From Patescibacteria group bacterium (GTDB lineage Bacteria > Patescibacteriota > Patescibacteriia > UBA11705 > DATKZF01), in NCBI GenBank assembly GCA_049319825.1, contig JBMORT010000006.1:166340-230339 (forward strand): a DNA stretch of 64,000 nt, in the 5' to 3' direction. The position numbers and the translations under genes are program-made. The notes beneath the pieces are model-generated. The model was not told the origin of the DNA and searched no databases. It saw only the letters and a program-made list of their open reading frames with translations. How positions within the stretch are numbered: position 1 is the stretch's first letter; each line of letters starts with the position of its first letter. Below, piece after piece: positions 2,915-60,127 of the stretch.

Positions 2915-3042
2915 ATATTTGGAAATTAGTTGTTTAGAAATTGGAAAATAGTGTTAGAAAATAGAAGTTTGAAAATGGTAATTAAACTAATTTCAATTTT
3001 CCAATTTCCATTACTAATTTCTGTTTTCCAAACAACGATTTT

Positions 3043-4896: not shown

Positions 4897-6144
4897 TTAT
4901 TGTTTAAAACGCAGCGCTTCTATCGGATCGAGGTCAGCGGCCTTTTTCGCCGGATATAAGCCGAAAATGAGGCCGACGATAAAGGAAAACCCGACTGCCA
5001 AAATGATCGATACCACTGACAAGCTGAATGCCCAGCTATAGCCGGCTGATTGCGCTACGACGCTCACCAGATATGACAGGCCGGCGCCGAGGGCAAAGCC
5101 GATCGTCCCGCCCAGCAAGGTTATTATCATGGCTTCAAACAGAAATTGCGATAGAATGTCTGATTTTTTCGCGCCGATAGCTTTGCGCAGCCCGATTTCA
5201 AAAGTTCTTTCCACCACAGCAACGTACATTACATTCATAATGCCCACCCCGCCGACCAAAAGCGATATGCCGGCGATGGCGATCAACAGCAATGTGACGG
5301 CGCTGACGATGGTATTTATTAAATCTTGGGCCTCTTTCATGGTGGTGACCTGAAAATCTTCTTTTTCCGGCGTCGCCGCGTCATGGCGGTCGCGCATTAT
5401 ATATTTAATTTCCTCGGCGGTTTCATCGATGTTCGCGGGATCACTGACTTCGGTGATTATCGCCGAGACATAATTTATTCCGAGCATTTTTTTCTGCATC
5501 GTATTGATCGGAATGTATAAAAGATTATCGAAGTCGAAAAACATCACGCCGCCGCGCGGCGCCATTACTCCGATCACCCGATAATTGTCTTTGCCGATTT
5601 TTAAATTTTTTCCGATCACTTCATCGTCGCCAAAAAAACGATCTTTAACTTTCGCGCCGATAACCGCCACCTTGCCCGCGCCGCTGTTCGCTTCTTCGTC
5701 GAAAAAGCTGCCTTCGGCAATATTACTTTTATCGATCTCGATGTAGCTGGGGGATACGCCGTAAATCAGCAGCTGGGCTCGTTCATTGTCTCGCTTGATC
5801 ACTTGTTGTCCGATATTGGCGGCGTAAGCGTTTTTGATGTTGGGAATTTTTTGTATTTCTTTCATGTCATCAATCGTCAGTGTGGTGATCGCCACGCCGG
5901 TGGCCAGGGCGGTGGCTTGTTCAGTTTGCGATTTGCTGGAAGTGGGTACTTTGACTTCAATATTGATCCAGTTATCTCCAAAGGCGGCGAGTTCTCCCAT
6001 GATCAGGCCTTTCATGCCTTGGCCGGCGGAAATTACGGTAATGACCGCCGCTATGCCGATGACAATGCCTAAAATGGTCAGCAATGTTCTGGATTTGTTG
6101 ACCTTAAGGTTGGTGAGGGCAATTTTTAAATTTGAAACAATCAT
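4897..6144 (-). CDS. ABC transporter permease, MacB/FtsX family (YknZ-like), paralog 1
   Basis: N-terminal TM helix, a periplasmic MacB_PCD-like domain and a C-terminal FtsX 4-TM bundle. 415 aa. Confidence 0.85.
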   Translation of the reverse strand: MIVSNLKIALTNLKVNKSRTLLTILGIVIGIAAVITVISAGQGMKGLIMGELAAFGDNWINIEVKVPTSSKSQTEQATALATGVAITTLTIDDMKEIQKIPNIKNAYAANIGQQVIKRDNERAQLLIYGVSPSYIEIDKSNIAEGSFFDEEANSGAGKVAVIGAKVKDRFFGDDEVIGKNLKIGKDNYRVIGVMAPRGGVMFFDFDNLLYIPINTMQKKMLGINYVSAIITEVSDPANIDETAEEIKYIMRDRHDAATPEKEDFQVTTMKEAQDLINTIVSAVTLLLIAIAGISLLVGGVGIMNVMYVAVVERTFEIGLRKAIGAKKSDILSQFLFEAMIITLLGGTIGFALGAGLSYLVSVVAQSAGYSWAFSLSVVSIILAVGFSFIVGLIFGLYPAKKAADLDPIEALRFKQ

Positions 6145-6310
6145 GAAATTGAGTTTACGAGATTACCACGAAGTGGTCACTTGGTGACAAGATCCGACTT
6201 ACAAGATTATACAGATTACAAGATACGCAAGAGTATGCTAATCGAGGTCTTGATATCTTGTATAGCTGTACAGCGATCTGGTCCCGAAGGGATCCCTCGT
6301 AGATTCAAAA
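6145..6310. repeat. TACAAGAT / ATCTTGTA word-repeat array inside the efflux operon (between the two permease paralogs)
   Basis: GACAAGAT, TACAAGATTA and TTACAAGATA occur as direct copies and ATCTTGTATA inverted. A GGGATCCC palindrome is also present. Confidence 0.7.
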
Positions 6311-7552
6311 TTATTCATACCGTAGCGCCTCAATCGGATCGATTTTTGAAGTTTTGAGCGCCGGATAGAGTCCGAATACCAGTCCGATCAGTGATGACAC
6401 GCCCAATCCCAGCGCTATCGATTGCAGCGATACCACGAAATCCCAGTCGTAATTAAGATAGTTGGCGACCGCGGCCACCGCGCCGGAAAAAGCGGTTCCG
6501 ATAATAATGCCGATAGCGCCGGCGACTAAAGTTATTACCACGGTCTCCACCAAAAATTGGGTGATCAGGTGAATGTTTCTGGCGCCGACGGCTTTTCTCA
6601 GACCAATTTCCCTGATTCTTTCATTGACGGCGATCAACATGATATTCATGATGCCGATGCCACCGACGACCAAGGCTAAGCCGCCGACCGCAGCAAGAAA
6701 AAATTTGAGCGCGTCCGTTATGGTAGTGACAATGTCCAGGGCTTGAGCAGAAGATCGGACTGAAAAATCATCGTCGGTCGGGTCATCGATGTTGTGCTGT
6801 TCGCGCAATGTTTGTTTAATTTCTTCAATGCTTTGATCGACATACGCGGTATCGTCAATCTTTACTCTGATTAATGTGACATGGTTCACGCCGAGCAACA
6901 GTTTTTGCGCCGTTGCCAGCGGAATAAAAATTTTATTGTCCTGATTTTCCAGACCGACCACGCCGCGTTCCTTCATTACTCCGATTACCTTGAAAGCCGA
7001 CTTTTCGATTTTGATGGTTTCACCGATCGGATCTTGATCGCCGAATAAATCTTCGGCCATTGTCGGCCCCAAAACGACCATTCGGGAAATGCTTCTTTCC
7101 TCGGATTCGTCGAAGAATCGGCCTCGGGCGACTTCGGCTTCCTCGACGGTGGTGTAGTTGGCCGTGGTGCCGGTATAAGTTGATTGAGCGCTGACGTCTC
7201 GCCAGCTGATGGTGCCTTGGCCGGTAATGTAGGCCGCCGCGGCCAGCGCGTGCTCGACATTTTGTCTTTTTTCCAAGGCGAGCGCGTCTTCGTACTTAAG
7301 CGTGGTAATGATAATCCCGAATACCGACGCCGGCGGGCCGGACTCGTCGCTTGATCCCGGCAGGACGCCGATCAGATCAGTGCCGAAATTTTTAATTTGG
7401 TTGATAATCAGGCTCTGCGCGCCGGCGCCGACAGACATGATGATAATAATCGCCGTGATGCCGATAACCAGTCCGAGCATTGTTAAAAAAGAACGAACCT
7501 TATTCGCTCTTAAATTGTTGAGTGATATTTTTATGGCATCGCGAAATTCCAT
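6311..7552 (-). CDS. ABC transporter permease, MacB/FtsX family, paralog 2
   Basis: Same architecture as 4897..6144, 413 aa, with a C-terminal motif similar to the paralog. Confidence 0.85.
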   Translation of the reverse strand: MEFRDAIKISLNNLRANKVRSFLTMLGLVIGITAIIIIMSVGAGAQSLIINQIKNFGTDLIGVLPGSSDESGPPASVFGIIITTLKYEDALALEKRQNVEHALAAAAYITGQGTISWRDVSAQSTYTGTTANYTTVEEAEVARGRFFDESEERSISRMVVLGPTMAEDLFGDQDPIGETIKIEKSAFKVIGVMKERGVVGLENQDNKIFIPLATAQKLLLGVNHVTLIRVKIDDTAYVDQSIEEIKQTLREQHNIDDPTDDDFSVRSSAQALDIVTTITDALKFFLAAVGGLALVVGGIGIMNIMLIAVNERIREIGLRKAVGARNIHLITQFLVETVVITLVAGAIGIIIGTAFSGAVAAVANYLNYDWDFVVSLQSIALGLGVSSLIGLVFGLYPALKTSKIDPIEALRYE

Positions 7553-7773
7553 AAATTGATATTACAAGATGACGAGATTTACTGTACAAGATGGTACGAG
7601 ATGACTTTTATATCAGGGCGAAATTTATAATCCGAATACCCCGAAATGCGGCTAATGCAGAATTTAAAATTCGAGCTTCGATACCGATAACCATCATTGT
7701 TATGTGCTCCATCACGCGTTCGCGAAAGACGTGATCCATGCTCCATGATACGGGATCCAGGATATCATCGCTT

Positions 7774-8502
7774 TTACTTCACAAACTGTCCGTTTTTGGC
7801 GCTGCGGCGTGCGTGATCATGGTTGTCTTGCATGGCGATGCCATCGCGAACCATGATGATTCTTTCCGCGTATTCGGCCGTGTACTTTTCGTGAGTCACC
7901 AAAATTATGGTGTGCCCCTCGTCGTATAAATCTTCGATTAATTCCATGATTTTGCCGCCGGTTTTACTGTCCAGATTGCCCGTGGGCTCGTCGGCCAGAA
8001 TCAATGAAGGCTCATTGACCAGCGCTCGGGCGATGGCCACTCTTTGCTTTTCGCCGCCGGACAATTGGTTTGACAGGTAATTCATACGATGTTCCAAACC
8101 GACGGCAACGGCCGCTTTTTTGGCCATTGCCAGTTTGTTGCCCTTCTTCTTGCTATATATAAGAGGCAGTTTGATATTATCAATGACTGTGGTGCGGGGA
8201 AGCAGGTTAAAGCTTTGAAAAACAAAACCGATTTCATTGTTTCTCATGTCCGCTAGATCGTCGTCGGATAATTGGCTGACATCTTTGCCTTTGAATTTAT
8301 ATTTTCCAGCAGTTGGCCGATCCAGAAATCCGATGATGTTCATCAGCGTCGATTTTCCCGATCCGGACGGCCCCATAATGGCCACGAATTCGCCTTGGTT
8401 GATGGTGATATTGATGCCATGCAAAACTTTAGTAACAATATCTTCATTATGATATTCCTTTGTAATATCAATCATTTCGATGAGTGGTTTTGATTTAGCC
8501 AT
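7774..8502 (-). CDS. ABC transporter ATP-binding protein (MacB/LolD/YknY-like)
   Basis: Walker [10 protein letters not shown], signature [15 protein letters not shown] and Walker [12 protein letters not shown]. Confidence 0.9.
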
Positions 8503-8769
8503 AGATTTTTAGAAGGCTTGAGGGGGCTTAAGAGGGCTTGAGAAGGCTGAGAGGGAAAGAGGGCAAAACCGTATTGTCGATATTCGGAAATCGTAATCGA
8601 AGTTGGAAAATCGAAATTCGTTTCAAGCGAGTTTCGAATATCGAATTTCCAAACCAATTTCGAGTTTCGACATAACGAATTTCGTCTATCGTATTTCGTG
8701 TCTCGTATTTCGTCTTTCGTGTTTCGTGTTTCGTGTATCACATCTCGCATTTCTTATTCCAACAATCCG
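8503..8769. repeat. low-complexity spacer: GGCTTGAGRGGGC units, then CGAAWTTCG units, then a TTTCGTSTT x8 tandem run
   Basis: Visible directly. It lies between the HlyD-like gene and the ABC ATPase gene, inside the operon on the minus strand. Confidence 0.7.
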
Positions 8770-10587
8770 TTATTCATTTTTTATAAAGGTAATCACCTCA
8801 TCGCCTTCACTCAAACCGGAGACTATTTCGGTATTTGAATCGCCTTTTAGCCCGGTTTCGACCTCGACTTCTTCAATGTTGCCGTTCTTTAAGACGCGAA
8901 CGATTTTTTTACCGTTTTGGGAAATGATGGCGCGGTGCGGCACGGCCAGCACATTTTCTTTTTTATCAGTGGTAATGACAACATTGGCCGTCATGCCCGG
9001 CTTGATATCTTTTTCTGATTTTTCGGTGAAGATCAGTTTGATTTTATAATAAATCACCCCGGCGATTTCCGTTTCCGCCGGCTCAATGAATATTACCTTG
9101 GCCTGAAAAATCAAGTCGTCTCCATAAGCGTCGAGAGTAACCTCGGCGAGGTCGTCCAGTTCGACTTTGGCGATATCAGTTTCAGATATATCCAAATCGA
9201 TTTGGGGACTGTCCGTGATGATAGCGGTCATCGGCGCGCCAGCGGCAACATTTTCGCCGATTTGATGCTCCATTTTGGAAACGACGCCATCGACCGGAGC
9301 GATTATTTGAGTTTTTCTATAAGATGAACTGGCTGAATTTAAATTCGCCCGCGCGCGGTTGATTTCCGCTCTTAGCCCGGCCAAATCAACTTCTCTTGGG
9401 TCGGAGGTCAGCCGGTTGAGATCTGCCTCGGCGGCCAAAAGAGAGCTTTCTTTGGCTTTAACACCCAGCTTGGCCGATGCGATCGCATTTTCAGATTCTA
9501 CGGTAACGGTTTGCAGGTTTTGCGATGCCGCTTGATAGTCCTGATCGGCGAGATTATAGGAATTTATGGCCGAATTCAGGGCTTGTTTATAGGATTCCAA
9601 AGTACTGATACCGCTGCGGACGCTGGTTTTAGCGGTATCAACGTTAGCGACAAGCGCATCCAGCTCTGATTGCTTAAAATCAAAAGCTGTCCCGGCGCTT
9701 TCCAGCACCAGCCGCGTGCTGTATAAACATTTATCTATTTGCAAAAAAGCGGAGTCGACCAGATCGATCGCTTGATCGATATCGTTTTGCGGCGAGGTGA
9801 TTGTCAGTCGCTGATAATAATCATCGGCGTCATCGTAGAGTCGCATTGATTCCGGGCAATCGCGAAACGCATTGTTCCAGACCTGCCGGTCAATCGTTAA
9901 ATATTTTTCAAAATCATCATTAATACCGGGTTCGTCGAAGCCAATGACCGAGTCGGCGGTCTGTAGGCCATTAAAAATCGTCAGCAAACTGTTGCCGAGC
10001 TGGATGAAAATATTATTGTAAGCATCTTTGACTTTTTGGCTCAGCTCAGCCGAGTCGTCAATCAGTTCGAGATTAAGCTTGGCTTTTTCCAAAGATACCT
10101 CGGCGTTTTTAATATTTTGTTCCGCTGATTTGGTAACGGACAGCAAGTCATTTTGGGCGGTTTCCAGCGCCACCGATGCGATCGCCACATTTGCTTTGGC
10201 GATATCGATATCCTGGTTGGTGGCGCCGGCCAATTTTAAATTAAGCGCCGCTTGGGCAGCGTCCAGGGCGGCCTGAGCCGCGCTGACTGATGCCGCTTGA
10301 TCTTGCGACTCCAATTCAGCGATAATCGCTTGGGAGCTGACTTTTTGTCCTATCGAATAATTGATTCGGCCGACAATGCCGCTGGTCTGAAATCCCAGCT
10401 CAATATCCGGGTCGCTGACCACTTTACCGGTCTCGGAAACGGTCTGAAGCAGGGTTTGGCGTTCGGCCTTGACCGTATTGTATTCTTCTTGTTTCGGCGC
10501 CCTGGATTTAGCAATGATAGAAATCACGACGATAATTACGATGATTGCTAAAACAATCCAAAAGCTTTTTCTTTTGAATATTGACAT
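8770..10587 (-). CDS. periplasmic adaptor / membrane-fusion protein, HlyD/MacA/YknX family
   Basis: N-terminal TM helix, a very long coiled-coil hairpin region and a C-terminal beta-barrel/MPD region. It sits upstream of the ATPase and the two permeases. Confidence 0.8.
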   Translation of the reverse strand: MSIFKRKSFWIVLAIIVIIVVISIIAKSRAPKQEEYNTVKAERQTLLQTVSETGKVVSDPDIELGFQTSGIVGRINYSIGQKVSSQAIIAELESQDQAASVSAAQAALDAAQAALNLKLAGATNQDIDIAKANVAIASVALETAQNDLLSVTKSAEQNIKNAEVSLEKAKLNLELIDDSAELSQKVKDAYNNIFIQLGNSLLTIFNGLQTADSVIGFDEPGINDDFEKYLTIDRQVWNNAFRDCPESMRLYDDADDYYQRLTITSPQNDIDQAIDLVDSAFLQIDKCLYSTRLVLESAGTAFDFKQSELDALVANVDTAKTSVRSGISTLESYKQALNSAINSYNLADQDYQAASQNLQTVTVESENAIASAKLGVKAKESSLLAAEADLNRLTSDPREVDLAGLRAEINRARANLNSASSSYRKTQIIAPVDGVVSKMEHQIGENVAAGAPMTAIITDSPQIDLDISETDIAKVELDDLAEVTLDAYGDDLIFQAKVIFIEPAETEIAGVIYYKIKLIFTEKSEKDIKPGMTANVVITTDKKENVLAVPHRAIISQNGKKIVRVLKNGNIEEVEVETGLKGDSNTEIVSGLSEGDEVITFIKNE

Positions 10588-13634: not shown

Positions 13635-14387
13635 ATGGCAGAACTAACCACAATTGAAAAACAGATTCTTGAAAAGCTCTTTCAAATGGGCGGTGGTTAC
13701 GTTTTAAATTTTTCTGACAGAACAATGGGTGAATTTTTCAGAGACGATGTTGGACTAGATATTTACACTCAGAAATACAATTACGCAAGCGGCTCAAAAG
13801 CCAATCGTATGCGTGGTCTATGGTTAAAAGCAGACAATAAAACGGTAGGAAACTCTATATTAAAACTTATTGAATACATTGAAAGTCAAATTTTGATTGA
13901 TGAACTTTCCCGTGATGATTTTCCCGAAGATAGAATAAAGGCCGCCAAAGAGATAGTTGACAAATTGTTAGGGAAAAAGAGTAAGCCAAAAGATAGTAAA
14001 TCGAAAGCTACTTTTAAAAATGGCAATATTAACATTACTTTACAAAAAGATATTTTTGATCATGTCCAAAAATTATTGAATAGCGGGCATTATTTCAATG
14101 CAGTCGAAGAAGCATACAAAATTGTTAGAAAAAAACTAAAAGATATTACTGGAAAAGAAAAAGCGACGGACGCTTTTAACAGTTCAAATTATGAAAAAAT
14201 TTTTGGCCATCAGCCTGTAGAGCAAGCTGAGAAAGATTTTTTTGAGGGCGTAAAATTTTTACATATGTCTATTCAATTTTTACGAAATGAGAAAGCGCAT
14301 ACGCCAGCGCGTGATTTGGACAAAAATTTAGCAATTCATTATATATCGCTCGCCAGTTTAGCGTATGATTTAATCACTAGAAAGTGA
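13635..14387 (+). CDS. HEPN-domain protein, TIGR02391/Abi-like (putative abortive-infection RNase)
   Basis: The C-terminal domain carries the Rx4H HEPN motif (FLRNEKAHT) in a TIGR02391-like context (GHYFNAVEEAYKIVRKKL). It is the first gene of the AT-rich island. Confidence 0.6.
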   Translation: MAELTTIEKQILEKLFQMGGGYVLNFSDRTMGEFFRDDVGLDIYTQKYNYASGSKANRMRGLWLKADNKTVGNSILKLIEYIESQILIDELSRDDFPEDRIKAAKEIVDKLLGKKSKPKDSKSKATFKNGNINITLQKDIFDHVQKLLNSGHYFNAVEEAYKIVRKKLKDITGKEKATDAFNSSNYEKIFGHQPVEQAEKDFFEGVKFLHMSIQFLRNEKAHTPARDLDKNLAIHYISLASLAYDLITRK

Positions 14388-14393
14388 ATTATT

Positions 14394-15422
14394 ATGGCAC
14401 ATAAACACTTACACAAGGCAGGCCGTGCGAAGAATGATGAGTTTTATACCCAGCTCGTTGACATTGAAAAAGAGCTTAAATACTACAAAGAACAATTCCG
14501 TGGCAAGGTTGTGTACTGTAATTGCGATGATCCTTTTGAAAGTAATTTTTTCAAGTATTTCGCTGCCAATTTTAATGCATTAGGACTCAAGAAACTCATC
14601 ACAACGAGTTACAATAAATCACCGATTGCAGGTAGACAGTTGCCCTTGTTTGAAATGGAGGGGTTGAAATCTATAAAGCCTATAGACGCAGAGCCCTACA
14701 AAATTGAAATAAATGAAGTATCCGATATTAACAACGATGGCGCGATAAATCTCGAAGACGTTGAACAATTAATAAAGCATGAGAAAAACATCGCAACCCC
14801 CTTGCGTGGTAACGGTGATTTCCGCAGTGACGAGTGTATTGAGCTACTCAAGCAAGCCGATATAGTCGTGACTAACCCTCCATTTTCACTATTCCGTGAG
14901 TATGTCGCCCAGCTTGTGAAATATAAAAAAAAGTTTTTGATTATAGGTAATACAAATGCCCTAACTTATAAAGAGATTTTTAAATTAATTAAAGAGAATA
15001 AATTCCGCACTGGCTATACCAATTTTAATGTAGGTATGTTTTTTGTTGTACCAGACGATTGGGAACATTTTCACCATGTCGATAAAGATGGCAAAAAAAT
15101 TGCGCGAGTCTCAACATCATGCTGGTTTACAAATCTTGAAGTTGAAAAACACAAGGAAGATATCATTCTTTACAAAAAATATACACCCGAAGAGTATCCA
15201 AAATATGACAACTATAATGCAATCAATGTAAATAAATACACAGATATTCCCTATGATTACACTGGGTATATTGGCGTACCAATCACTTTTATCGATAAAT
15301 ATAATCCTGAACAGTTTGAAATAGTGAGATTTCGAAAAGGTAATGATGATAAAGACTTATCAATAAATGGAAAATATACCTATTTTAGAATTATTATAAA
15401 AAATAAGAAAGTTAAAAAATAA
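14394..15422 (+). CDS. DNA N6-adenine methyltransferase, EcoRI-methylase-like family
   Basis: N-terminal KNDEFYTQ...VVYCNCDDPFESNFFKYF and catalytic motif IV TNPPFS. The resemblance to M.EcoRI is recalled from memory, not searched. Confidence 0.7.
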   Translation: MAHKHLHKAGRAKNDEFYTQLVDIEKELKYYKEQFRGKVVYCNCDDPFESNFFKYFAANFNALGLKKLITTSYNKSPIAGRQLPLFEMEGLKSIKPIDAEPYKIEINEVSDINNDGAINLEDVEQLIKHEKNIATPLRGNGDFRSDECIELLKQADIVVTNPPFSLFREYVAQLVKYKKKFLIIGNTNALTYKEIFKLIKENKFRTGYTNFNVGMFFVVPDDWEHFHHVDKDGKKIARVSTSCWFTNLEVEKHKEDIILYKKYTPEEYPKYDNYNAINVNKYTDIPYDYTGYIGVPITFIDKYNPEQFEIVRFRKGNDDKDLSINGKYTYFRIIIKNKKVKK

Positions 15423-15423
15423 T

Positions 15424-16533
15424 ATGAAAATAGAGCTTCATCAAATTCCAATTGGCAAAGTCATCGCCGGTTACAAGGATAGCGCCGAAGAAGGTGTCGT
15501 GGCTTATGACGGTAAGCTTGATATTCGCCCAAAGTATCAGAGAGAATTTGTGTACAATGAAAAACAGCGCAATGCCGTGATTGAAACCGTTAAGCAAAAC
15601 TTCCCGCTCAACGTAATGTACTGGATGGTTCGCGAAGACGGTGGCTATGAAATGCTGGACGGTCAGCAACGTACCATCAGTATTGGGCAGTATGTGAATG
15701 GTGACTTCTCGCTCGAAAATCGTTTTTTCCATAATTTAACACCTGAAGAACAAGATCAGATTTTGGATTATGAATTAATGATTTACTTTTGTGAAGGTAC
15801 GGATAAGGAAAGATTAGATTGGTTTAAAACAATCAATATAGCCGGTGAAAAATTAACCGACCAAGAAATTCGTAATGCGGTTTACACAGGGCCGTGGCTT
15901 TCTGACGCTAAATTGAAGTTTAGCAAAACACAGTGTGCGGCATATCGTTTAGCGACCGACGGCGGAAAGTTAGTCAGCGGTTCTCCAATCCGTCAAGAAT
16001 ATTTAGAAGCCGCGCTTTCATGGATAAACAACGGCGAAGTTGCGGATTACATGGCGAAGCATCAGCACAACAAAAATGCTAATCAGTTGTGGGAATATTT
16101 CCAAGATGTCATTGCGTGGGTGCGTAAAACTTTTCCAAATTACCGAAAAGAAATGGCAAGCGTAAATTGGGGCGAATTATACAACAAATTCAAAAAAAAG
16201 AAGCTAAACGCCGAAAAACTAGAAGCCGAAATTGCCAAGTTAATGCAGGATGAGGATGTAACAAAAAAATCTGGCATATATCCTTATGTACTCACAGGAG
16301 AAGAAAAACACCTTTCTATTCGCGCGTTCACCGACAAAATGAAGCGGGAAGCATACGAGCGGCAAAAAGGTGTTTGCCCTTGGTGCAAAAAAGAGAAGAA
16401 AGAAAAACAAAAATGGGAAATTGAAGAAATGGAAGCCGACCATATTAAGCCTTGGCACGAGGGCGGAAAAACAACCGCAGAGAATTGCCAAATGTTATGC
16501 AAACAAGATAACCGAACTAAATCGGGGAAGTAA
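15424..16533 (+). CDS. DUF262 (ParB/GmrS-like, DGQQR motif) N-domain fused to a C-terminal HNH nuclease
   Basis: DGQQRT motif and a C-terminal CPWC...ADHIKPWHEGGKTTAENCQMLCKQDN HNH motif. The start is 2 nt after the methyltransferase stop. Confidence 0.8.
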   Translation: MKIELHQIPIGKVIAGYKDSAEEGVVAYDGKLDIRPKYQREFVYNEKQRNAVIETVKQNFPLNVMYWMVREDGGYEMLDGQQRTISIGQYVNGDFSLENRFFHNLTPEEQDQILDYELMIYFCEGTDKERLDWFKTINIAGEKLTDQEIRNAVYTGPWLSDAKLKFSKTQCAAYRLATDGGKLVSGSPIRQEYLEAALSWINNGEVADYMAKHQHNKNANQLWEYFQDVIAWVRKTFPNYRKEMASVNWGELYNKFKKKKLNAEKLEAEIAKLMQDEDVTKKSGIYPYVLTGEEKHLSIRAFTDKMKREAYERQKGVCPWCKKEKKEKQKWEIEEMEADHIKPWHEGGKTTAENCQMLCKQDNRTKSGK

Positions 16534-16640
16534 AAATTGGAATAGGGTGTGTATAATTTTCTTTACATGACTCTTGACAAAAAATTCTACATCGCTTACA
16601 ATGGAGGTGTAAGTATTATTAAATAATTTCCATTAACACT

Positions 16641-16853
16641 ATGGATAGAAAACGAAAAGCAGACCACGAAAAAATAAAGAAAATTTTAGAAAAACGTGGT
16701 TATAAAAACGGTGAACCACCACGTGGATATGAGGTGCACCACATCAAACCACTTGCAGAAGGCGGAAAGGATACACCTAAAAATATTCGGGTAATAAAAA
16801 TAATAAAACACAAACAAATACACGCTAATCGTAAAGAAAGAAGTAAAATTTAA
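16641..16853 (+). CDS. mini HNH endonuclease (70 aa)
   Basis: The motif EVHHIKPLAEGGKDTPKNIRV...H resembles the HNH core of the upstream gene (HIKP-EGGK-T--N). Confidence 0.6.
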   Translation: MDRKRKADHEKIKKILEKRGYKNGEPPRGYEVHHIKPLAEGGKDTPKNIRVIKIIKHKQIHANRKERSKI

Positions 16854-16855
16854 TT

Positions 16856-17623
16856 ATGTTTGGAAAATTTATCCAACATCAACGTACCAAGCGAAATATG
16901 ACACAGGAATATCTTGCGTCAGAGCTTGATATGTCTCGTCCCACTTATTTACAGATTGAACGCGGGGAGCGAGAGCTTACGATTTCCGAAGCAAAAAAGC
17001 TGGCGGCTCTTTTTGACATGCCGCTTGAAAATTTTCTTGCTGCCAGAGAACCAAAACGAAGTGTTGCCATTGAAAAAGAATCGGTAAAAAAAACTGAAGA
17101 CTTGCAGATTCGCGTTACAGAAAAAAACCTTGATAAATTCAAGCAGGTTTTGCTTTATGTTTTGAATAAGGTTGGTGGCAAGCCAAATGTTGGTGAAACA
17201 GTTTTGCATAAACTTCTTTATTTTATCGATTTTGACTACTACGAGAAGTTTGAAGAAAACTTAATGGGTGCAACTTATATCAAAAATCATCACGGTCCCA
17301 CTTCTATCGAGCTCGGCACAATTATAGAGGAAATGCAGACGCAGGGTGAGTTAGAAGCTGTAAAGAGTCAGTATTTTAAGTATTTACAAAAAAAGTATCT
17401 GCCGCGAAAACGTCCTAATCTCGATATTCTTTCCGCGCGAGAAATTGAGCACATTGATGATGTACTTGCTCGTCTTTCAGACAAAAATGCTGCGGAAATA
17501 GAAAATTATTCACACGAGGACATTCCTTGGAAATCTGCGCAGGACGGCAAGCCGCTTTCTTACGAGAGCGTTTTCTACCGCGACGAGCGATACTCCGTAA
17601 GAAACTATGACGATAAACTTTAA
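16856..17623 (+). CDS. HTH-XRE + Panacea/SocA (DUF4065) domain protein, PanA-type antitoxin candidate
   Basis: N-terminal XRE HTH (MTQEYLASELDMSRPTYLQIERGER). Panacea-like core VGGKPNVGETVLHKLLYFIDFDYYEKFEENLMGATYIKNHHGP. Starts 3 nt after the mini-HNH stop. Confidence 0.65.
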   Translation: MFGKFIQHQRTKRNMTQEYLASELDMSRPTYLQIERGERELTISEAKKLAALFDMPLENFLAAREPKRSVAIEKESVKKTEDLQIRVTEKNLDKFKQVLLYVLNKVGGKPNVGETVLHKLLYFIDFDYYEKFEENLMGATYIKNHHGPTSIELGTIIEEMQTQGELEAVKSQYFKYLQKKYLPRKRPNLDILSAREIEHIDDVLARLSDKNAAEIENYSHEDIPWKSAQDGKPLSYESVFYRDERYSVRNYDDKL

Positions 17624-30192: not shown

Positions 30193-33100
30193 ATGAGAAG
30201 ATTGGTCGCCGGCACAGTGATCCTGCTTTTCATTATTTTGAAGAGTTCCCAGAGTTTGGCCGGTTATGATTTTATCGTTGTTGAACCAGCCGCAGCGGAA
30301 TATTCTCCCGGAGAAGAAATTACTTTCCATTTCGCATTTTACTTTATCCAAATGGGCATCACTTGCGCCACCATCAGCGGCAGTGTCTATAATGAAAGCG
30401 GCGGTCTGATCGACGCGGCCACGCAGGGGATCGCCAGCGATGGCTCGTATCATCTTTACGCGTACGCGAACGCTCCCAGTGGTTACGGAGTGCACATTTT
30501 TGAAATGATGTTTCATGTTCAGCTTTGTCCGGGATGGCAATTTTCAGACGGTAGCACCAGTATTTCTTACTCCGAGGACATTTTGATTGAGATCGCTGGT
30601 TCAGCAACCAATTCGGACGTCGAGAGCGATATTGATTTGTATGATGAAGATATTTGGGAAGAAATCGGTGACGGAGACGATGTCTTTGAGGTCGGAGAAA
30701 GAATTTGTTTTGAAATCGAGCTGGAAAACGACAGCAGTTCCGATTCGTATGACATCGATGCGGTTTACACCTACAGCAGCGGAGCTGACGTGGATTGGAA
30801 TGATGATGACTGCGGCGTTGATTTCACGTTATCGGAATTGGATGAAGATTGGGTCGATGATGATTTTTGTTTCACTGCCCGGGAGTTGGGCAGAGTCAAG
30901 GTGGAGATTTATGTGAAATTGGAAGGTGCCGCCACTTTGTATAACGTTGATTCTTTTCATATTGATATCGTCTGTCAGCCATCCTGGAGCTGCACGAACT
31001 GGTCAAGCTGCGCCAATTGCTTTCAGACGCGCGTTTGCACCGATTCGCATAATTGCGGCACGACCAGCGGTAAGCCGGCCGAATCCCAGTCTTGCGGTAT
31101 TTTTCCCAATCAGTGTGATCCGTTCGGCAGTCTCTGCGACGGCAACGTGGCCTACGACTGCTTGTACGACAGCTACAATTGCTACTATTACAAATCCAAT
31201 CAGCAGACCTGTCTTTACGGCTGCAGCTTCGGTGAATGCGCGTCCGCGACCGAATGCGCATACACAGATTGTTACTTGGATGATTTGTGGTGCCATAACA
31301 GCGCCGGCATTCGAACGTATATCGGGCAGGACTGCGGAGCACTGCAAGAAGTTGAATATGAATTCATCTGCGATGGAATCGAGCGTTGGGCAATCGCGCA
31401 TGAAACCAACAGAGGTTGTCAATCTGGTCAATGCTATGTCAGTTTGCATGACAGTTCGTATTACTTGGAAACATGTTCCCAGCAATGCGCGAATGGTCAA
31501 TGCGTAAATCCCGATTGTTTGTACACCGCTTGCCTGAATAATGATTTATGGTGCTACAATTCTGCCAATCAGCCGCAGTATCTGGCTGAAGATTGCGGCA
31601 ATGCCAGCGGCACGTCCACGATCAGCGCCGTGTACTGCTCGGAGACCGGAGATTTGGTGAAGCTGAAGAGTTACTCCACCCGCTGTTGCGCCAATGGCGC
31701 TTGCGGCTGGTGCTTTCAATATAATTACGAGCAGGTGCAGGTGGAATGCCCAGCCGGTTGCGATCCGGACACTGATCAATGTTTGGCCTGCGTGCCGGCA
31801 TTCGATTGCTATCAGGCGCAGGTTTGTTTGTCGGATGATACTCAGGAGTACCAGTGCGACGACTTGCTTTGCGGCCAGCCGTCTTACACGGAAATCAGGC
31901 CATGCCAGTATTGCGATGAAAAGTGCGCGCTGGGAGAAAGCTACTGCGCCGGAAATACGGCGTTCACTTGCGTGTCGGTCGGCGGCTGTGATACTGATTG
32001 GCAGTCCGCCTTCTGCGGTTACAGCGAAGAAATTGAGGGAGAGCCGTATTGCAGCGGAAACAATGTAATGAAAGACACTACTGCTACCGATCGCTGGTGC
32101 GCTGACGGAGCGTGCCAACAAGAAATTTCGATCAACGCTGAGGCAATCGCTGATTGCGGTGTTGATACCTCTTTTTCAACCATGCCGTATTGCTTGAACG
32201 ATGACGTTGTATTTGATGACGTCGAAATTTTCAGAGGTTGCTCGAGCGGATCATGCTATGAAGATGAAACCAGCGAATCGCAGATTTTAATGGCATGTGG
32301 CGAGGATACGACAATCAGCGGTGTTAAGTCATGCAACAGCGATGGGAACGCAACTTTTGGCGATATTCACATTGTCAGGGGTTGTGAAAACGCTCAATGC
32401 CACGAGTACCCGATTCAGGATTATTTTGCGGAATTTGTTTGCCCCTGTGGCTGTGATGACGGCGATTGTCTGCCGTGCGACGGCTGCGACTATTTAGACT
32501 GCGGAACCAGCGAGTTCCACTCAACTCTTCCTTACTGCCATCAAGGCAAGGTTGTGTTTGATAATATCAATATCGAGCGCGGCTGCGCTGATTCAGCATG
32601 TTTCGCTGTTGACAACAGCCAGTATTATCAATTGCTCGATGATTGCGGCACCGATGAAATCAATACCAATGTCGCTTTTTGCCGCGATGGTAATATCGCG
32701 GTGGGAAATTCCGGCTATATTCGAGGCTGCAGCGATGCCCAGTGCTATGAAGAATCGATTGACTATGTGGCTTTTATTATCTTGTGCGAATGCGGATGTT
32801 CCGAAGCAGCTTGCCTGCCGTGTTATGAAGCATGCGTCAGTTTGCGTTGCAATCCGGAAGACGGCAATGTCTGGTGCTATGACAGCTGGGGACAGGCGAC
32901 ATCTCTGGAAACAGATTGCGCTCAGAATGAGGTTTGCCTTGGCGGAATTGAATACGATGCCGAGTGCGTTGAACTAATTGCCCCGGTTTGTGATCAGTTT
33001 GGCGTTGGTATTGATCAAACAATCTATCGAGCAGCAGACCGTTTTCCTCTGACTCGAACATTAACCTTGGAGCTTAAGGGATTTTTTGTATATGATGTAG

Positions 33101-39676: not shown

Positions 39677-42600
39677 ATGCTTTCTACAGTTTTTAAAATT
39701 AAAATTTTGAAAAAAAGTTTTTATCGATTTAAAAAGATAATATTTGTAATGTTGTCGTCTTTTATCGTTTTTTTTGCGTCTTTTTTGCAATTTGACATTA
39801 ATTCAGCCATGGCTGCCGATTCCGGATTTCAAAATCCCACGGCCAATGCGGCCGTGACCAGCGGCGCCGGAGACAATAACGGTTATCAGACAAGCCCCAC
39901 CAATGCTTACGCTGACGGAGGAGGAACGGCCATTGACTCAAACAGCGGCTCGAACACCAATGATACTTGCGCCAGCGCCGGAGCGGACAAGCACATTTGG
40001 AGCAATTTTAATTTCAATATACCGCTCGGTTCGAGCATTGACGGCATCGAGCTGCGTCAGGATTTATCGGTGGACAGTCTCAGCGATAGTCCTTTTACAT
40101 GCGTTGCTCTGTCGTGGGACGGCGGAACAACTTGGACTGCCTATAAAATCGCGTCTTTAAGCACCACCTCCGAAACGACATACACCTTTGGGAATGGAAC
40201 TGACAATTGGGGCAGATCGTGGAGTGGGGGAGAATTAAGTAACGCCAATTTTAGAGTGATGATCGCCAATGGAGATACCAATAACGCCAGATCCAGACGG
40301 GATTTTTCTCTTGATTGGATTGCTCCAAAAATTTATTATACTCCACCGACCCTGAATCAATCTGGCTATCGCCTATTTAATAATGCCGATTCCGCCAATG
40401 TGGGCAGTCCGTTGGCCGCGCTTAATTCGGCAGCTCAATTATCTTCGGGAAATGATAATTTCAGGTTGAGGCTGCTGTTGCATGACAGCGGGGTTAATTT
40501 GCCTCTGGCCGGTGATAATTTTAAACTGCAATATGTCGATAAAGGCGTGGGTACTTGCGCCGCTCCCAGTGGAGGCACTCCGGCCTCATACACTGATGTC
40601 ACCGCCGCGACAGCGATTGCTTACAGCAATAACCCGACACCGGCTGACGGCAGCGCTTTAATTGCCAATGCCAATGATCCCAGCCATGGTGCTGACGCGG
40701 TTATCAATCAGACATACGAAGAATTGAATAATTTTACAAATTCCCAAGCTCCGGTCGCGGTTGGTCAGGATGGCCTGTGGGATTTTTCTTTAAAGGATAA
40801 TACCGCGCCGGACGATAAAACATATTGTTTCCGAGTGGTGAAATCAGATGGATCTTTATTAAACGCATATTCGGTTTATCCTGAAATAATGACCGCTGAA
40901 GGCCCGCCCGTGTTAATGAGCGTCGTTGCCAGCGATCCGGACAATTGGGACAGCGTTCTCAGCAATTGGGATAGGCTGACTTTGCTTTTTAATAAAAGCA
41001 CCAATGCTCCGCAGGCCGGAACCAAGACCCAAATTGACGGCTTGATTAATTTTGCCAATCCGCTGGGTGCGAATTATTCAGGCATTTGGCAGACAACTAA
41101 TTTTATCGATGATACGTTGCGAATCACGGTTATCAGCGCCCTAGGCGGCAGTTTAAATATCGGCAATTTGATTTCAATAATCGCGGACGGCACTGAAGAT
41201 TTGAAAAATCAATCGGAGACATCTCCCGCTTCAACGACTTCCGGGAATGTCACCGGTAATTGGGGCTTCCAAAAGGCCTATTACGCCTGTGATGCGGTCG
41301 ATCAGGTATCATACATGGATGTCAATCTCGGAGCTTCTTCAAAGACCTTGTTGGGTAATCTTGGCGCGGCCAACGTTGAAGCCATTGTTTATGATTACAA
41401 TACGCAGACTTTATACGGCGCCAACGCCGGTCAATTGGGCACAATCAACCAAAGCACCGGTGCTTTTTCCGCCTTGCCGAATCCCATCGGCTCCGGCAAC
41501 GGCTCTCTCGGGGTTTTGGCTTTCAATGATGTTGACGGTCTGGCATTTGACCCTTGGACCAGCGTTTTATACGGCACGGTCAGGCGTGATCCGGGCAAGG
41601 ATTTATTGATAAAAATCAATCCGGCTACCGGCGCCAGAATCGCGAATGCATTCGGTACCGGAGTGGATTATGTGGTCATTGATGAAACGGGGGTGTTTGA
41701 CGATGTGGATGATATTAGCATCAACCCCCTCGACGATAAAATGTACACCATTGGCAATCAAGGTCATTTAACGGAAGACCAGCTTCTAATCATCAATAAA
41801 TTAACTGGTGCGATCAGTGTTCAGGCGAATTTCGGCATTATTCCCGGTTATGACATTGAAGGCATGGCCTTTTCCAGCGATGGTCGAATGTGGGGGACGC
41901 GCGGCGTGCCCAATGAATTAGTGCAGGTTATTTACAACACCAACCCTCCAACTATTACCGGCAATGTCAGTTTGGCTCCGGGTTGCGGCGATCCGGAAGG
42001 AATAGACTTCCAGATTACTTCTACCAACACGGTTACCGGAAGGGTCTGGGATGATTTGGACACGGACGGCGTTTTGGACGGCGGGGAACCGGGGTTGGCC
42101 AATGTTACCGTACGGTTATACAAAGATTTAAATAGCAATGGACTGGCGGACAGCCTCGATCTTTTAATTCAATCAAAAGTTACCGATGTTAGCGGAAATT
42201 ATACATTCAAATTTTTGGCTCTTGACGATTTTGTTTTGGAAATCGATGATTCTTCTTTGCCTTCCGGCTACGGGCTGACCACGGATAATTTGGAGGTAGC
42301 GGCTTTCACTTCGATGGGGGAGCTTGATGAAAATAATAATTTCGGCGCTGTTGCCGGTTCTGATTGCGACGGCGACGGCATTCCTGATTTTATTCAGGGG
42401 GTCGGAATAAACGATTTCGATGGAGACACGGTAATCGACAGCTGTGATTTGGACGTGGATAATGACGGCATATTGAATGCGATGGAAAGTTCCAATGATC
42501 GGGATGGTGATTCAATTCCAAATTTTAGAGATGTGGATTCGGATAACGACGGCATCCCTGATGCCAGGGAAGCCAATAGCGGCGTTGCGCCGACCGGTTA

Positions 42601-57445: not shown

Positions 57446-57594
57446 CCTAATTTCTAAATAATGTCCAATTCCCAATTTCCAGTTTCAATTTTTATTCGTA
57501 ATTATTTGTAATAAAACGATCATGGTCGTTATTCGTAATTTCCCAATTTCCAATTTTTCGTTTCCAATTTCCAAAATAAAAACCGGCCACAAGT

Positions 57595-58233: not shown

Positions 58234-58554
58234 CGGTTTTTCTCCGGTTTGTTTGTCAATGAACCTGAAAGATTAACATACGAAGCGGCGGCTGTCAAGG
58301 TTGGGAATCTGTTATGTGTTTCATGATCCATGTTCCATGATACGCGCTCCATGATTTTGACTAATTTTTAAGAATATGATATATTTTTGATACATGATTT
58401 CATGGCCTATTGATCCCTGCTCCATGATCCATGATTCATGACTAATTCATTAAATCACACATACTTTCCTTGGCTAATTTATGCCAAAAATTAACATTCC
58501 TCCCACCATGCGGGCAGTTGATTTGGGAAAGTAGCGGTTAAAAGGAACAAATTT

Positions 58555-59286: not shown

Positions 59287-59412
59287 AAAAATAATTTGTG
59301 GTTACGACGTTATGACGTTAAAAACGTTACGACGTTAAAACGTTACGATGTTATAATTGAAAACGTGACGATGATGATTTCATAACCTCATAACCTGGTA
59401 ACTTATATTCAT

Positions 59413-60000: not shown

Positions 60001-60127
60001 AATGACGAGTGATTATACAAGATTACAAGATATCGAGTACAAGATTATACTGATTACAAGATGTACAAGATAATTTATGGTATCTTGTATATCTCGTACC
60101 GTGATCTTGTAATCTTGTAGATTCAAT
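60001..60127. repeat. TACAAGAT x5 direct followed by ATCTTGTA x3 inverted (tsf-PSP1 spacer)
   Basis: TATACAAGATTACAAGATATCGAGTACAAGATTATACTGATTACAAGATGTACAAGATAA ... GGTATCTTGTATATCTCGTACCGTGATCTTGTAATCTTGTAG. Confidence 0.75.

What the first reader, a model, noticed from the sequence alone, without database searches (positions are those of the whole stretch)
6145..6310. TACAAGAT/ATCTTGTA word arrays recur in three unrelated intergenic spacers (6145-6310, 7553-7620, 60001-60127)
The same 8-mer, with an ACGAGAT/CTCGTA companion, appears as clusters of direct copies followed by inverted copies. The sites are between the two efflux permease genes, between permease and ATPase, and between tsf and the PSP1 gene.

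The direct-then-inverted arrangement (5 direct plus 3 inverted at 60.0 kb) makes an extended imperfect palindrome. That is the shape expected for either a multi-site binding platform for a dimeric DNA-binding protein or a small non-autonomous mobile element.

Their presence inside a polycistronic efflux operon suggests RNA-level roles as well, such as processing or stability hairpins.
Basis: seen in the sequence. Interest (0 to 1): 0.6.

Follow-up and report, generated by a model that had tools for sequence, protein, structure and literature searches.

The report
Palindromic 8-mer repeat elements between genes
The repeated TACAAGAT words are real: they belong to a family of roughly 100-base palindromic repeat elements that sit between genes in this candidate-phyla-radiation bacterium and its relatives, most likely small mobile DNA whose 8-base words are recognition sites for a protein not yet identified.

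Summary
TACAAGAT occurs 14 times against 1.4 expected, and 13 of the 14 lie in the three named spacers. Across the window and seven related loci, the four word forms are about 90 times denser in spacers than in genes.

The host is a Patescibacteria (CPR) MAG. The arrays are copies of one element: four or five TACRAGAT words, a loop, then four ATCTYGTA words, with conserved word spacing. The tsf→PSP1 copy is intact, the permease→permease copy is decayed, and the ATPase→permease copy is a 3' half only.

The same element occupies the same junctions in relatives whose synonymous sites are saturated. The words stay exact while the linkers have diverged. It is also absent from some orthologous junctions, is replaced there by other word families of like design, and lies in either orientation relative to transcription. 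A sister family shows clean empty and filled sites.

Best reading (about 0.5): a REPIN/MITE-like dispersed palindromic repeat family whose words are protein recognition sites. Hairpin formation in mRNA would be a consequence, or a co-opted role. Rivals are a host DNA-binding platform and an intercistronic RNA hairpin. No transposase, Rfam family, promoter or terminator signal was found.

The parts
60001..60127 (+). Copy A, intact element filling the whole tsf->PSP1/ricT spacer. It has a lead of 15 nt after the tsf stop, a 5' arm, a loop, a 3' arm, and a tail of 8 nt before the ATG at 60128.
   Evidence: Folds to -46.8 kcal/mol, z -6.3, with 0 of 200 shuffles as good. The same element sits at the orthologous junction in L128 and L131.
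60016..60071 (+). 5' arm of copy A: TACAAGAT x5 at 60016, 60024, 60038, 60055 and 60064, with linkers of 0, 6, 9 and 1 nt.
60082..60119 (+). 3' arm of copy A: ATCTTGTA (60082), ATCTCGTA (60091), ATCTTGTA (60104), ATCTTGTA (60112), with linkers of 1, 5 and 0 nt. The outer 16 nt are a perfect inverted repeat of 60016-60031.
6145..6310 (-). Copy B, decayed element filling the permease-1 -> permease-2 spacer. Read on the - strand there is one TACAAGAT (6262-6255), then ATCTTGTA (6224-6217), ATCTTGTA (6207-6200), ATCTTGTc (6193-6186) and ATCTCGTA (6163-6156). An 11-nt tail precedes the ATG at 6144.
   Evidence: Weak fold, z -2.7. Intact 4+4 or 4+5 versions occupy the orthologous junction in L132, L134 and L135.
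6164..6183 (+). Asymmetric block TACCACGAAGTGGTCACTTG nested in copy B. The same block, 19 of 20 bases identical, lies in copy D just beyond the window, where the flanking genes are on the opposite strand.
7553..7602 (-). Copy C, half element: a 3' arm only. Read on the - strand it is ATCTCGTA (7602-7595), ATCTTGTA (7592-7585), ATCTCGTc (7578-7571) and ATCTTGTA (7570-7563). A 10-nt tail precedes the ATG of permease-1 at 7552. The rest of the spacer (7603-7773) holds other word families.
   Evidence: No fold. The same four-word half array, with linkers of 2, 5 and 1 nt, is present in L133 and L134 and absent in L132 (1-nt spacer) and L135 (8-nt spacer). L134's copy has MFE -2.5 kcal/mol.

Best explanation
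The three arrays are copies of one repeat element. A fourth copy lies about 4.3 kb beyond the window end. The element is a palindrome of about 90-130 bp built from an 8-mer: four or five TACRAGAT words, a short loop, then four ATCTYGTA words.

The word spacing is characteristic. Linkers are about 0-1, 5 and 1-2 nt on the 5' arm and are mirrored on the 3' arm.

It is one of several such word-array families that occupy gene junctions in this Patescibacteria lineage. Others include GCGAAT, ACGAAT, CCGGAT, ACGGAT and an ATTCGAAA type.

Most likely it is REPIN/MITE-like non-autonomous DNA that is copied into the very short stop-to-start junctions of compact operons. Each arm carries several sites in one orientation and the two arms are inverted, as in transposon ends. 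On this reading the 8-mers are the sites read by the protein that mobilises or maintains the family.

Shown here:
- The family is dispersed.
- Copies are present or absent at orthologous junctions.
- Copies lie in either orientation relative to transcription.
- The words are under sequence constraint.
- Full copies can form a stem of about 40 bp running from the stop codon to about 8-11 nt before the next start.

Inferred:
- A protein reads the words.
- Copying is the source of new copies.
- The transcribed hairpin affects the operon mRNA, through processing, stability or translational coupling. This may be a side effect, or a co-opted role that helps explain why resident copies stay intact.
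For: (1) Enrichment and clustering are far above chance.

(2) Common architecture at different loci and in different genomes. The 3' arm W'-(1/2)-W'-(5)-W'-(0/1)-W' is seen at tsf>PSP1, permease1>permease2, ATPase>permease1, 90aa>DUF8128 and cupin>next gene.

(3) Presence/absence at orthologous junctions:
- ATPase>permease1 is filled in the window, L133 and L134, but the genes abut (TAGtATG, or 8 nt) in L132 and L135.
- tsf>PSP1 carries TACRAGAT in the window, L128 and L131. It carries other families of like design in L122, L124, L125, L126 and L130, and nothing in L123.

(4) Families recur at non-orthologous sites with the same termini:
- The GCGAAT element of L122 tsf>PSP1 recurs in L128 DUF8128>187aa.
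- The ATTCGAAA-type element sits at window 8589-8682, at L132 and L135 GT>ThiI, and at L135 19321-19370.
- For that element, the window, L133 and L134 show clean empty sites with an ATGA gene overlap.

(5) Orientation is independent of transcription. Copies B and D share an asymmetric 20-nt block although their flanking genes are on opposite strands. The ATTCGAAA element is also found both ways round.

(6) The spacers have been expanded. The window's efflux operon has spacers of 267, 221 and 166 nt, against 1-21, 1-159 and 74-106 nt in relatives.

(7) Words are constrained:
- Four-fold degenerate sites of permease-1 are only 27-47% identical between genomes.
- Orthologous arrays nevertheless keep the words exactly. 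In L133 v L134 the words match 32/32 and the linkers 4/8. In L134 v L135 the words match 31/32 and the linkers 4/8.

(8) The constraint is on sequence, not on pairing. At the one variable position the pairs are A-T 9, G-T 4, A-C 3 and G-C 2. This equals the expectation if the two arms vary independently.

(9) The zero-linker outer word pair is shared by the window copy at tsf>PSP1 and the L132 copy at permease1>permease2. The window and L132 are the closest pair of genomes, yet the two loci differ. This suggests copying between loci within a lineage.

(10) REPIN populations are known to persist and stay conserved in bacterial lineages (PMC3116915, PMC8049555).
Against: No transposase, RAYT or other candidate mobiliser was seen in the window (Pfam on about 40 proteins). 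However, only about 71 kb of the genome could be read.

No target-site duplication could be defined.

No strain-level polymorphism was available. The only re-sampled contigs were identical. Mobility is therefore inferred from comparisons between genomes at 72-87% protein identity.

Inert MITE remnants should decay. Yet the orthologous copies, including a half copy with no hairpin, keep perfect words. That fits a host function at least as well as mobility does.

Eight-base words at 8-13 bp spacing are shorter than the transposase sites known in bacterial transposon ends (my own knowledge).
Confidence: 0.5

Rival explanations
1. Host cis-regulatory DNA. The words are operator half-sites for a sequence-specific DNA-binding protein, for example an RHH or winged-helix protein that binds cooperatively. 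Four sites in one orientation and four in the other form a platform that controls transcription within and between operons.
For: The words are exact while linkers and synonymous sites are randomised.

There is no pairing covariation at the variable position.

Word starts are 8-14 bp apart, near one helical turn.

A half array with no hairpin potential is conserved in three genomes directly upstream of permease-1.

Mixed direct and inverted short-repeat arrays are a known design for RHH repressors and centromere binders such as omega of pSM19035 and MetJ boxes (my own knowledge).
Against: The downstream genes have no common theme: permeases, ricT/pheS, a 188-aa protein, DUF8128 and others.

The same junction is occupied by different word families in different relatives, and the same family sits at different junctions. 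A regulon does not explain this easily.

There is no promoter-like signal in or next to the arrays beyond chance.

Copies B and D are decayed.

The arrays are absent from junctions where the genes simply abut in relatives.
Confidence: 0.2
2. Primary function at the RNA level. The transcribed element is an intercistronic hairpin that spans from the upstream stop codon to just before the downstream start. It would set relative expression within operons, either by sequestering the initiation region until the upstream ribosome melts the stem base (translational coupling), or by RNase III processing or 3'-end protection. The pyrimidine-rich ATCTYGTA arm alone would serve as an unstructured leader.
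For: All full copies, and the replacement families at tsf>PSP1, fold far better than shuffles (z -3.0 to -6.8).

The stems start 2-15 nt after the stop and end 8-11 nt before the ATG.

The architecture is kept at tsf>PSP1 although the words differ between genomes.

Most genes lack a Shine-Dalgarno sequence.

Half and hybrid arrays next to start codons are always of the ATCTYGTA type on the sense strand.

Heptamer repeats just upstream of start codons have been proposed as translational signals elsewhere (PMC4679880).
Against: Within the family the words are conserved rather than covarying. A.C mismatches are as frequent as chance predicts.

The conserved half copy has no partner arm.

Asymmetric copies lie in both orientations relative to transcription.

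The stop-to-start geometry follows trivially from insertion into junctions that are 1-21 nt long in relatives.

Word arrays of other families also fill convergent and divergent spacers.

No U-tract terminator is present.
Confidence: 0.2
3. Locally generated simple repeats. Each array arose in place by replication slippage and template switching, and the sharing of TACAAGAT among spacers is coincidence or mutational bias.
For: The genome-contig scan shows that near-tandem 7-8-mer arrays of similar words (ACAAGAT, GCAAGAT, GCAGGAT and others) are common in many phyla. They are often followed by inverted copies.
Against: The spacing here is irregular but conserved. The same two word variants, the same linker pattern and shared non-word blocks recur at different loci and in at least six genomes.

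None of the 120 loci from the scan has this architecture.
Confidence: 0.04
4. Guide-RNA arrays (TIGR or CRISPR-like), which are common in CPR bacteria.
For: TIGR-Tas systems occur in Patescibacteria, including Buchananbacteria, and their arrays are poorly conserved in sequence (PMC12045711; bioRxiv 10.64898/2026.09.09.750476).
Against: The conserved parts here are the 8-mers, and the variable linkers are only 0-6 nt. TIGR units have two 8-12-nt variable spacers flanked by box C/D motifs in units of about 36 nt.

No Nop-domain (Tas) or Cas protein was found in the window.

The arrays sit between housekeeping genes.
Confidence: 0.01

Closest known systems
REP/REPIN elements mobilised by RAYT transposases (PMC3116915, PMC8049555, PMC3733652)
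   Same: Both are short, non-coding, extragenic, hairpin-forming palindromes of about 100 nt when doubled. Several families can coexist in one genome. Both show dispersed copies, long persistence and sequence conservation in a lineage, and location between genes including inside operons.
   Different: There is no GTAG or CGTC end tag. Each arm is an array of four or five 8-mers rather than one 20-40-nt palindrome. No RAYT gene was seen in the 71 kb available. The host is a CPR bacterium. Copies fill the whole stop-to-start junction.
Prokaryotic MITEs (review PMC10969869)
   Same: Both have terminal inverted repeats, a size of about 75-170 bp, no coding capacity and multiple copies at non-orthologous sites. 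Both show presence/absence among relatives, nesting and decay.
   Different: No target-site duplication and no parent insertion sequence were identified. The terminal repeats are word arrays. Resident orthologous copies keep their words at saturating divergence.
Arrays of short direct and inverted repeats bound by RHH proteins (omega repressor heptads of pSM19035, MetJ boxes, ParR/ParG centromeres); named from my own knowledge
   Same: Both have 7-8-bp words in mixed direct and inverted orientation at close spacing. In both, word sequence is conserved and linkers are free.
   Different: Those arrays are contiguous, lie at promoters or centromeres next to the binder's own gene, and number a few per replicon. 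The arrays here are dispersed between unrelated housekeeping genes, are interchangeable with other word families, and have no promoter signal.
TAACTGA heptamer direct repeats upstream of start codons in Beggiatoaceae, Cyanobacteria and Bacteroidetes (PMC4679880)
   Same: Both are genome-specific short words repeated in spacers within a few nucleotides of start codons. In both, the genes mostly lack ribosome-binding sites, the downstream genes share no functional theme, and the mechanism is unknown.
   Different: The TAACTGA repeats are contiguous tandem heptamers in one orientation only. The words here are spaced 8-mers with an inverted partner arm and a conserved 4+4 design.

Membership tests
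REP/REPIN | Extragenic imperfect palindrome able to form a hairpin | tested here: met
   Copy A has z -6.3. Orthologues and sister families have z -3.0 to -6.8.
REP/REPIN | Conserved GTAG or CGTC tetranucleotide at one end (PMC3733652) | tested here: not met
   The ends read GTAG only in copy A. Other copies read GTAA, GTAC or GTAT. No CGTC is present.
REP/REPIN | Cognate RAYT (Y1 transposase) gene in the genome, flanked by the repeats | tested here: inconclusive
   None was found among about 40 window proteins. Only about 71 kb of the genome is readable here.
MITE | Terminal inverted repeats and small non-coding body | tested here: met
   In copy A the outer 16 nt are perfectly inverted. Elements are 74-166 nt long.
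MITE | Copies at non-orthologous sites and presence/absence at orthologous sites | tested here: met
   There are six independent junctions for the TACRAGAT family. ATPase>permease1 is filled in 3 genomes and empty in 2. A sister family shows clean empty sites.
MITE | Target-site duplication | tested here: inconclusive
   Empty and filled junctions differ by more than the array at this divergence. No duplication could be defined.
MITE | Autonomous parent element with the same ends | not testable with these tools
   This needs the whole genome or pangenome. Scans of viral contigs, phages and plasmids found nothing alike.
Protein-bound operator/centromere repeat arrays (RHH type) | Short words in direct and inverted orientation, with the word conserved and the linker free | tested here: met
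Protein-bound operator/centromere repeat arrays (RHH type) | Located at a promoter or centromere associated with the binder's gene | tested here: not met
   There is no promoter-like signal above chance. The neighbours are unrelated housekeeping genes.
Protein-bound operator/centromere repeat arrays (RHH type) | Demonstrated binding protein | not testable with these tools
   This needs EMSA or pull-down.
TIGR array | Adjacent Nop-domain tas gene | tested here: not met
   Pfam scans of the window proteins found none.
TIGR array | Repeat units with two 8-12-nt variable spacers flanked by box C/D motifs (PMC12045711) | tested here: not met
   The variable linkers are mostly 0-6 nt and there are no box C/D motifs.
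Intrinsic terminator | G+C-rich stem followed by a U tract | tested here: not met
   There are 0 terminator-like sites in 59200-60300 and none in the operon arrays. Canonical terminators exist elsewhere in the lineage.
Any Rfam family | Match at or near the gathering score | tested here: not met
   The only hits are far-sub-threshold matches to plant miRNA hairpin models.
TAACTGA-type start-proximal heptamer repeats | Contiguous tandem heptamers in one orientation within a few nt of the start codon | tested here: not met
   The start-proximal position is met, with a tail of 8-11 nt. But the words are spaced 8-mers with an inverted arm.

The most novel reading that the evidence does not exclude
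The word arrays are not junk. An unidentified sequence-specific protein reads the 8-mers. It installs and maintains interchangeable palindromic cassettes exactly at cistron junctions. The cassettes then act as operon punctuation in these compact genomes, which mostly lack Shine-Dalgarno sequences. A stop-to-start hairpin would gate translation or processing of the downstream cistron. This would be a domesticated mobile-element system of a kind not described before, possibly related to the unexplained short-word arrays seen across many phyla.
Probability: 0.2. Interest if true: 0.8.

Novelty: new variant of a known kind. Interest (0 to 1): 0.55.

Why it matters
CPR/Patescibacteria genomes are small and tightly packed, yet a large share of their scarce non-coding DNA here consists of these word-array palindromes.

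If they are mobile, they are a new design of miniature element. They slip between abutting genes without breaking operons. Their 8-mers should lead to an unknown mobilising or binding protein.

If they are functional, they would be a lineage-wide device for controlling expression within operons in organisms that cannot yet be manipulated genetically.

They also matter in practice. They break short-read assemblies, and they mislead gene callers into spurious ORFs and wrong start codons.

Tried and rejected
It was flooded by near-tandem 7-8-mer arrays from many phyla. None has the 4+4 architecture. It showed a wider phenomenon but no relatives of this family.

(2) A shared leader left over from tandem duplication of the two permease genes is rejected. 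The paralogues are only 41% identical.

(3) Rfam gave nothing at gathering or relaxed thresholds.

(4) Sigma-70 promoter and intrinsic terminator scans gave nothing above chance in the arrays. Reading the words as -35/-10 boxes by hand also fails.

(5) TIGR or CRISPR-like arrays are rejected on defining features.

(6) Viral contigs gave only chance or coding hits. Phage and plasmid collections gave no match.

(7) The mTERF-domain protein at 57595-58233 was considered as the word reader. It has only 6 detectable homologues, and it is absent at this locus in relatives that have the arrays.

(8) A rule that the 5' arm is purine-rich and the 3' arm pyrimidine-rich holds for this family but not for hairpin spacers in general. 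It was dropped as an argument.

(9) Extending the contig leftwards to look for a transposase failed. The Logan contigs end in the 1426-1996 spacer.

(10) Strain-level comparison was uninformative, because the re-sampled contigs were identical.

Full report
**1. The observation**

TACAAGAT and its complement occur 14 times in the window. Dinucleotide-preserving shuffles give 1.43 +/- 1.29, and none of 100 shuffles reaches 14. Thirteen hits lie in three spacers. The fourteenth (22598) is a lone hit inside a gene. The companion TACGAGAT/ATCTCGTA is interleaved with them.

Pfam confirms the gene context:
- Two MacB_PCD/FtsX permeases, at 4897-6144 and 6311-7552, both on the - strand.
- An ABC ATPase at 7774-8502 (-) and a membrane-fusion protein at 8770-10587 (-).
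- EF-Ts at 59413-60000 (+) and PSP1/RicT at 60128-60985 (+).

The 60-kb array is as described: five direct copies, a 10-nt loop, then four inverted copies, one of which is the CG variant.

Two corrections are needed:
- The 7553-7602 site has four copies in one orientation only and does not fold (z +1.7).
- Two of the three sites are neighbouring junctions of one operon.

A direct-then-inverted palindrome reads the same on both strands. The shared polarity of the arrays is therefore informative only for half copies.

**2. The organism and the comparison set**

The PSP1 and permease proteins are 100% identical to proteins that NCBI names from a Patescibacteria-group MAG with a 365-kb contig. The nearest named relatives are Candidatus Buchananbacteria, at about 60% identity. 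Most genes in the window lack a Shine-Dalgarno sequence.

I fetched syntenic DNA from relatives at 48-87% protein identity:
- L122-L125.
- L126/L134, which are one genome (GCA_964411255.1), plus L128, L130 and L131.
- L132, L133 and L135.
- L001, which extends the window by 7 kb.

**3. Anatomy of the element**

Writing each array as words and linkers gives one design.
- 5' arm: TACRAGAT-(0/1)-TACRAGAT-(5)-TACRAGAT-(1/2)-TACRAGAT.
- Loop: 5-14 nt.
- 3' arm, mirrored: ATCTYGTA-(1/2)-ATCTYGTA-(5)-ATCTYGTA-(0/1)-ATCTYGTA.
- In intact full copies the element starts 2-15 nt after the upstream stop codon. In most copies it ends 8-11 nt before the downstream ATG.

The design is seen at six independent junctions:
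- tsf>PSP1 in the window, L128 and L131.
- permease1>permease2 in L132, L134 and L135, and in decayed form in the window.
- ATPase>permease1, as a 3' arm only, in the window, L133 and L134.
- 90aa>DUF8128 in L126, where it is a hybrid with a TACGGAT 5' arm.
- DUF8128>188aa in the window genome just past the window end, in decayed form.
- cupin>next gene in L135.

Full copies fold into long hairpins:
- Copy A: -46.8 kcal/mol, z -6.3.
- Full copies in relatives, including the replacement families at tsf>PSP1: z -3.0 to -6.8.
- Decayed copy B: z -2.7.

The half copy is essentially single-stranded (MFE -2.5 kcal/mol in L134).

**4. The words are under sequence constraint**

Between these genomes the four-fold degenerate sites of permease-1 are only 27-47% identical, which is saturation. 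Orthologous arrays nevertheless keep the 8-mers exactly, while the linkers between them have diverged:
- L133 v L134 half array: words 32/32, linkers 4/8.
- L134 v L135 5' arm: words 31/32, linkers 4/8.

The only variable word position is R on the 5' arm and Y on the 3' arm. Across the stems predicted for seven arrays the opposed bases are A-T 9, G-T 4, A-C 3 and G-C 2. That matches the expectation if the two arms vary independently.

The constraint is therefore on the word sequence, not on base pairing. Something reads TACRAGAT.

Over the window and seven related loci the four word forms occur 63 times in 21.6 kb of spacer and 5 times in 153 kb of CDS. Three of those five are a further array upstream of a mis-called start.

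**5. The arrays behave as dispersed, insertion-type repeats**

(a) Presence and absence. The ATPase>permease1 junction carries the half array in three genomes. In L132 it is TAGtATG and in L135 it is 8 nt. The window's efflux operon has spacers of 267, 221 and 166 nt where relatives have 1-21, 1-159 and 74-106 nt.

(b) Replacement. tsf>PSP1 carries different words in different genomes:
- TACRAGAT in three genomes.
- GCGAAT words in L122.
- ACGAAT/ATTCGG words in L126.
- CCGGAT words in L130.
- ACGAAT words in L124 and L125.
- Nothing (a short spacer without an array) in L123.

In every filled case the design is direct copies, then inverted copies.

(c) The same family at different junctions. 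The GCGAAT element of L122 tsf>PSP1 recurs in L128 DUF8128>187aa with the same termini, aagcgatgcgaatga...attcgcatcggt.

A second family of about 120 nt (AAATTCGTTATGTCGAAA...TTTCGACAATACG) lies at four sites:
- Window MFP>ATPase spacer (8589-8682).
- L132 GT>ThiI.
- L135 GT>ThiI.
- L135 19321-19370.

In the window, L133 and L134 the GT and ThiI genes overlap by ATGA. These are clean empty sites.

(d) Orientation. Copies B and D share the asymmetric block TACCACGAAGTGGTC[A/G]CTTG, yet their flanking genes are on opposite strands. The 120-nt element is also found both ways round.

(e) A lineage-specific variant at different loci. The window and L132 are the closest pair of genomes, at 86.5% for permease-1. 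They share the zero-linker outer word pair, but at different junctions.

(f) Decay and nesting. Copies B and D carry inserted G+C-rich mini-hairpins and have lost words. The window ATPase>permease1 spacer is a mosaic of three or four families.

**6. The wider setting**

Other spacers in the window are also word arrays, built from other words:
- 8503-8769: ACACGAA x~9, then a TTCG-type arm, then CTCAAGCC x3.
- 2915-3042: GGAAATT / AATTTCC.
- 57446-57594: CCAATTT and ATTCGTAAT.
- 58234-58554: CCATGAT words flanking a conserved TTGACT-N17-TATATT promoter of rpsB.
- 59287-59412: GTTACGAC / CATAACCT, shared with L126.

Many of the spacers of 50-300 nt in these loci fold clearly better than shuffled sequence, with z of -3 or below.

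A collection-wide scan showed that drifting 7-8-mer arrays, often with inverted partners, occur in many phyla. None has this element's design.

**7. Interpretation**

The best-supported reading is a REPIN/MITE-like family of palindromic repeats whose 8-mers are protein recognition sites. On this reading several sites in one orientation on each arm, with the arms inverted, mirrors the layout of transposon ends.

The stop-to-start geometry needs no function. It follows from insertion into junctions that are only 1-21 nt long in relatives.

What this reading explains poorly is the exact preservation of resident orthologous copies, including a half copy, at saturating divergence. That points to one of three things: continuing homogenisation by the same protein, a host function as a DNA-binding platform, or a co-opted RNA role.

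I therefore give about 0.5 to the mobile-repeat reading. I give about 0.2 each to a host DNA operator platform and to a primary RNA hairpin role in coupling, processing or stability.

No mobilising enzyme was found, but only 71 kb of the genome was accessible.

**8. Comparison with known systems**

- REP/REPIN: the extragenic palindromic habit, multiple families and long persistence match (PMC3116915, PMC8049555). The GTAG/CGTC tag is absent (PMC3733652) and no RAYT was seen.
- MITE: terminal inverted repeats, size, dispersal and presence/absence match. A target-site duplication and a parent element are unresolved.
- RHH-type heptad operator arrays share the mixed-orientation short-word logic. 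They do not share the promoter or centromere context.
- TIGR arrays, which occur in CPR bacteria, are excluded on defining features.
- The TAACTGA start-proximal heptamers (PMC4679880) are the nearest published unexplained analogue, but they are contiguous and one-directional.
- There is no Rfam family, and no match in phage, plasmid or viral collections.
- I found no paper describing such elements in Patescibacteria.

**9. Verdict**

This is a real and non-random feature. It is a new variant of a known kind, namely small palindromic dispersed repeats. Its word-array architecture is unusual and its 8-mer is strikingly conserved.

Interest is moderate to good (0.55). The mechanism is not settled, and the protein that reads the words is the obvious target.

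Noticed in passing
window 8503-8769 (- strand): The MFP>ATPase spacer is 267 nt here, against 1-21 nt in relatives. It consists of about nine ACACGAA-type heptamers, a 120-nt ATTCGAAA-type palindromic element (8589-8682), and three CTCAAGCC words before the ATG. The 120-nt element is also found in L132 and L135 at other junctions, with clean empty sites elsewhere. A gene caller placed a spurious 92-aa ORF in this spacer (L156).
   Followed up: partly
window 2915-3042, 57446-57594, 59287-59412: Further spacers are built from other short words: GGAAATT/AATTTCC, CCAATTT with ATTCGTAAT, and GTTACGAC/CATAACCT. The first folds with z about -9.5. The rpsB>tsf words are shared with L126 at the orthologous spacer.
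   Followed up: partly
window 58234-58554: A conserved sigma-70-type promoter, TTGACT-N17-TATATT, lies upstream of rpsB. It is flanked on both sides by CCATGAT/TCATGAT words in this genome; the rpsB upstream spacers of L126 and L128 also carry CATGA-type words. It is followed by a conserved leader, with a weak sub-threshold Rfam hit to TEG147 at 58516-58575. This is probably an S2 autoregulatory leader.
   Followed up: partly
window 57595-58233 (- strand): A 212-aa protein matches the mTERF family (Pfam E 1e-22). This is rare in bacteria: only 6 detectable homologues were found. Its gene is flanked by word arrays on both sides and has internal DNA repeats. It is absent at this locus in L126 and L128.
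   Followed up: partly
L002-L121 (genome-contig scan): Near-tandem 7-8-mer arrays (ACAAGAT, GCAAGAT, GCAGGAT, TGAAAGAT and others) drift in sequence along the array and are often followed by inverted copies. They occur in Bacteroidota, Bacillota, Chloroflexota, Desulfobacterota, Cyanobacteria, CPR and an archaeon. They are often multi-copy per genome and lie at contig ends. Several CPR examples end a few nucleotides before an ATG (for example L077).
   Followed up: partly
window 13635-17623: A low-GC island (36-38% GC) carries a Hypoth_Ymh protein, an EcoRI-type adenine methyltransferase, a GmrSD/HNH endonuclease and an HTH-SocA/Panacea antitoxin-like protein. This is probably a defence island.
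   Followed up: no
window 30193-35655 and 39677-48109: Two very large ORFs of 1820 and 2810 aa were not characterised here.
   Followed up: no
window about 1763-1996; L155, L156: Logan short-read contigs of the same sample end inside this convergent spacer. It holds a canonical terminator plus G+C-rich repeat-like sequence. This suggests a multi-copy repeat that breaks assemblies.
   Followed up: no
L135 11243-11346 and 4957-5090; L156 4165-4443: Gene callers mis-place start codons or call spurious ORFs inside the word arrays. In L135, permease-2 is called 10 codons too long. A 140-aa gene in L135 is called through an array.
   Followed up: partly
L133 7816-9807: In this relative the permease1>permease2 junction is disrupted by an inserted 219-aa gene on the opposite strand. 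Permease-2 is split into two ORFs and is a probable pseudogene.
   Followed up: no
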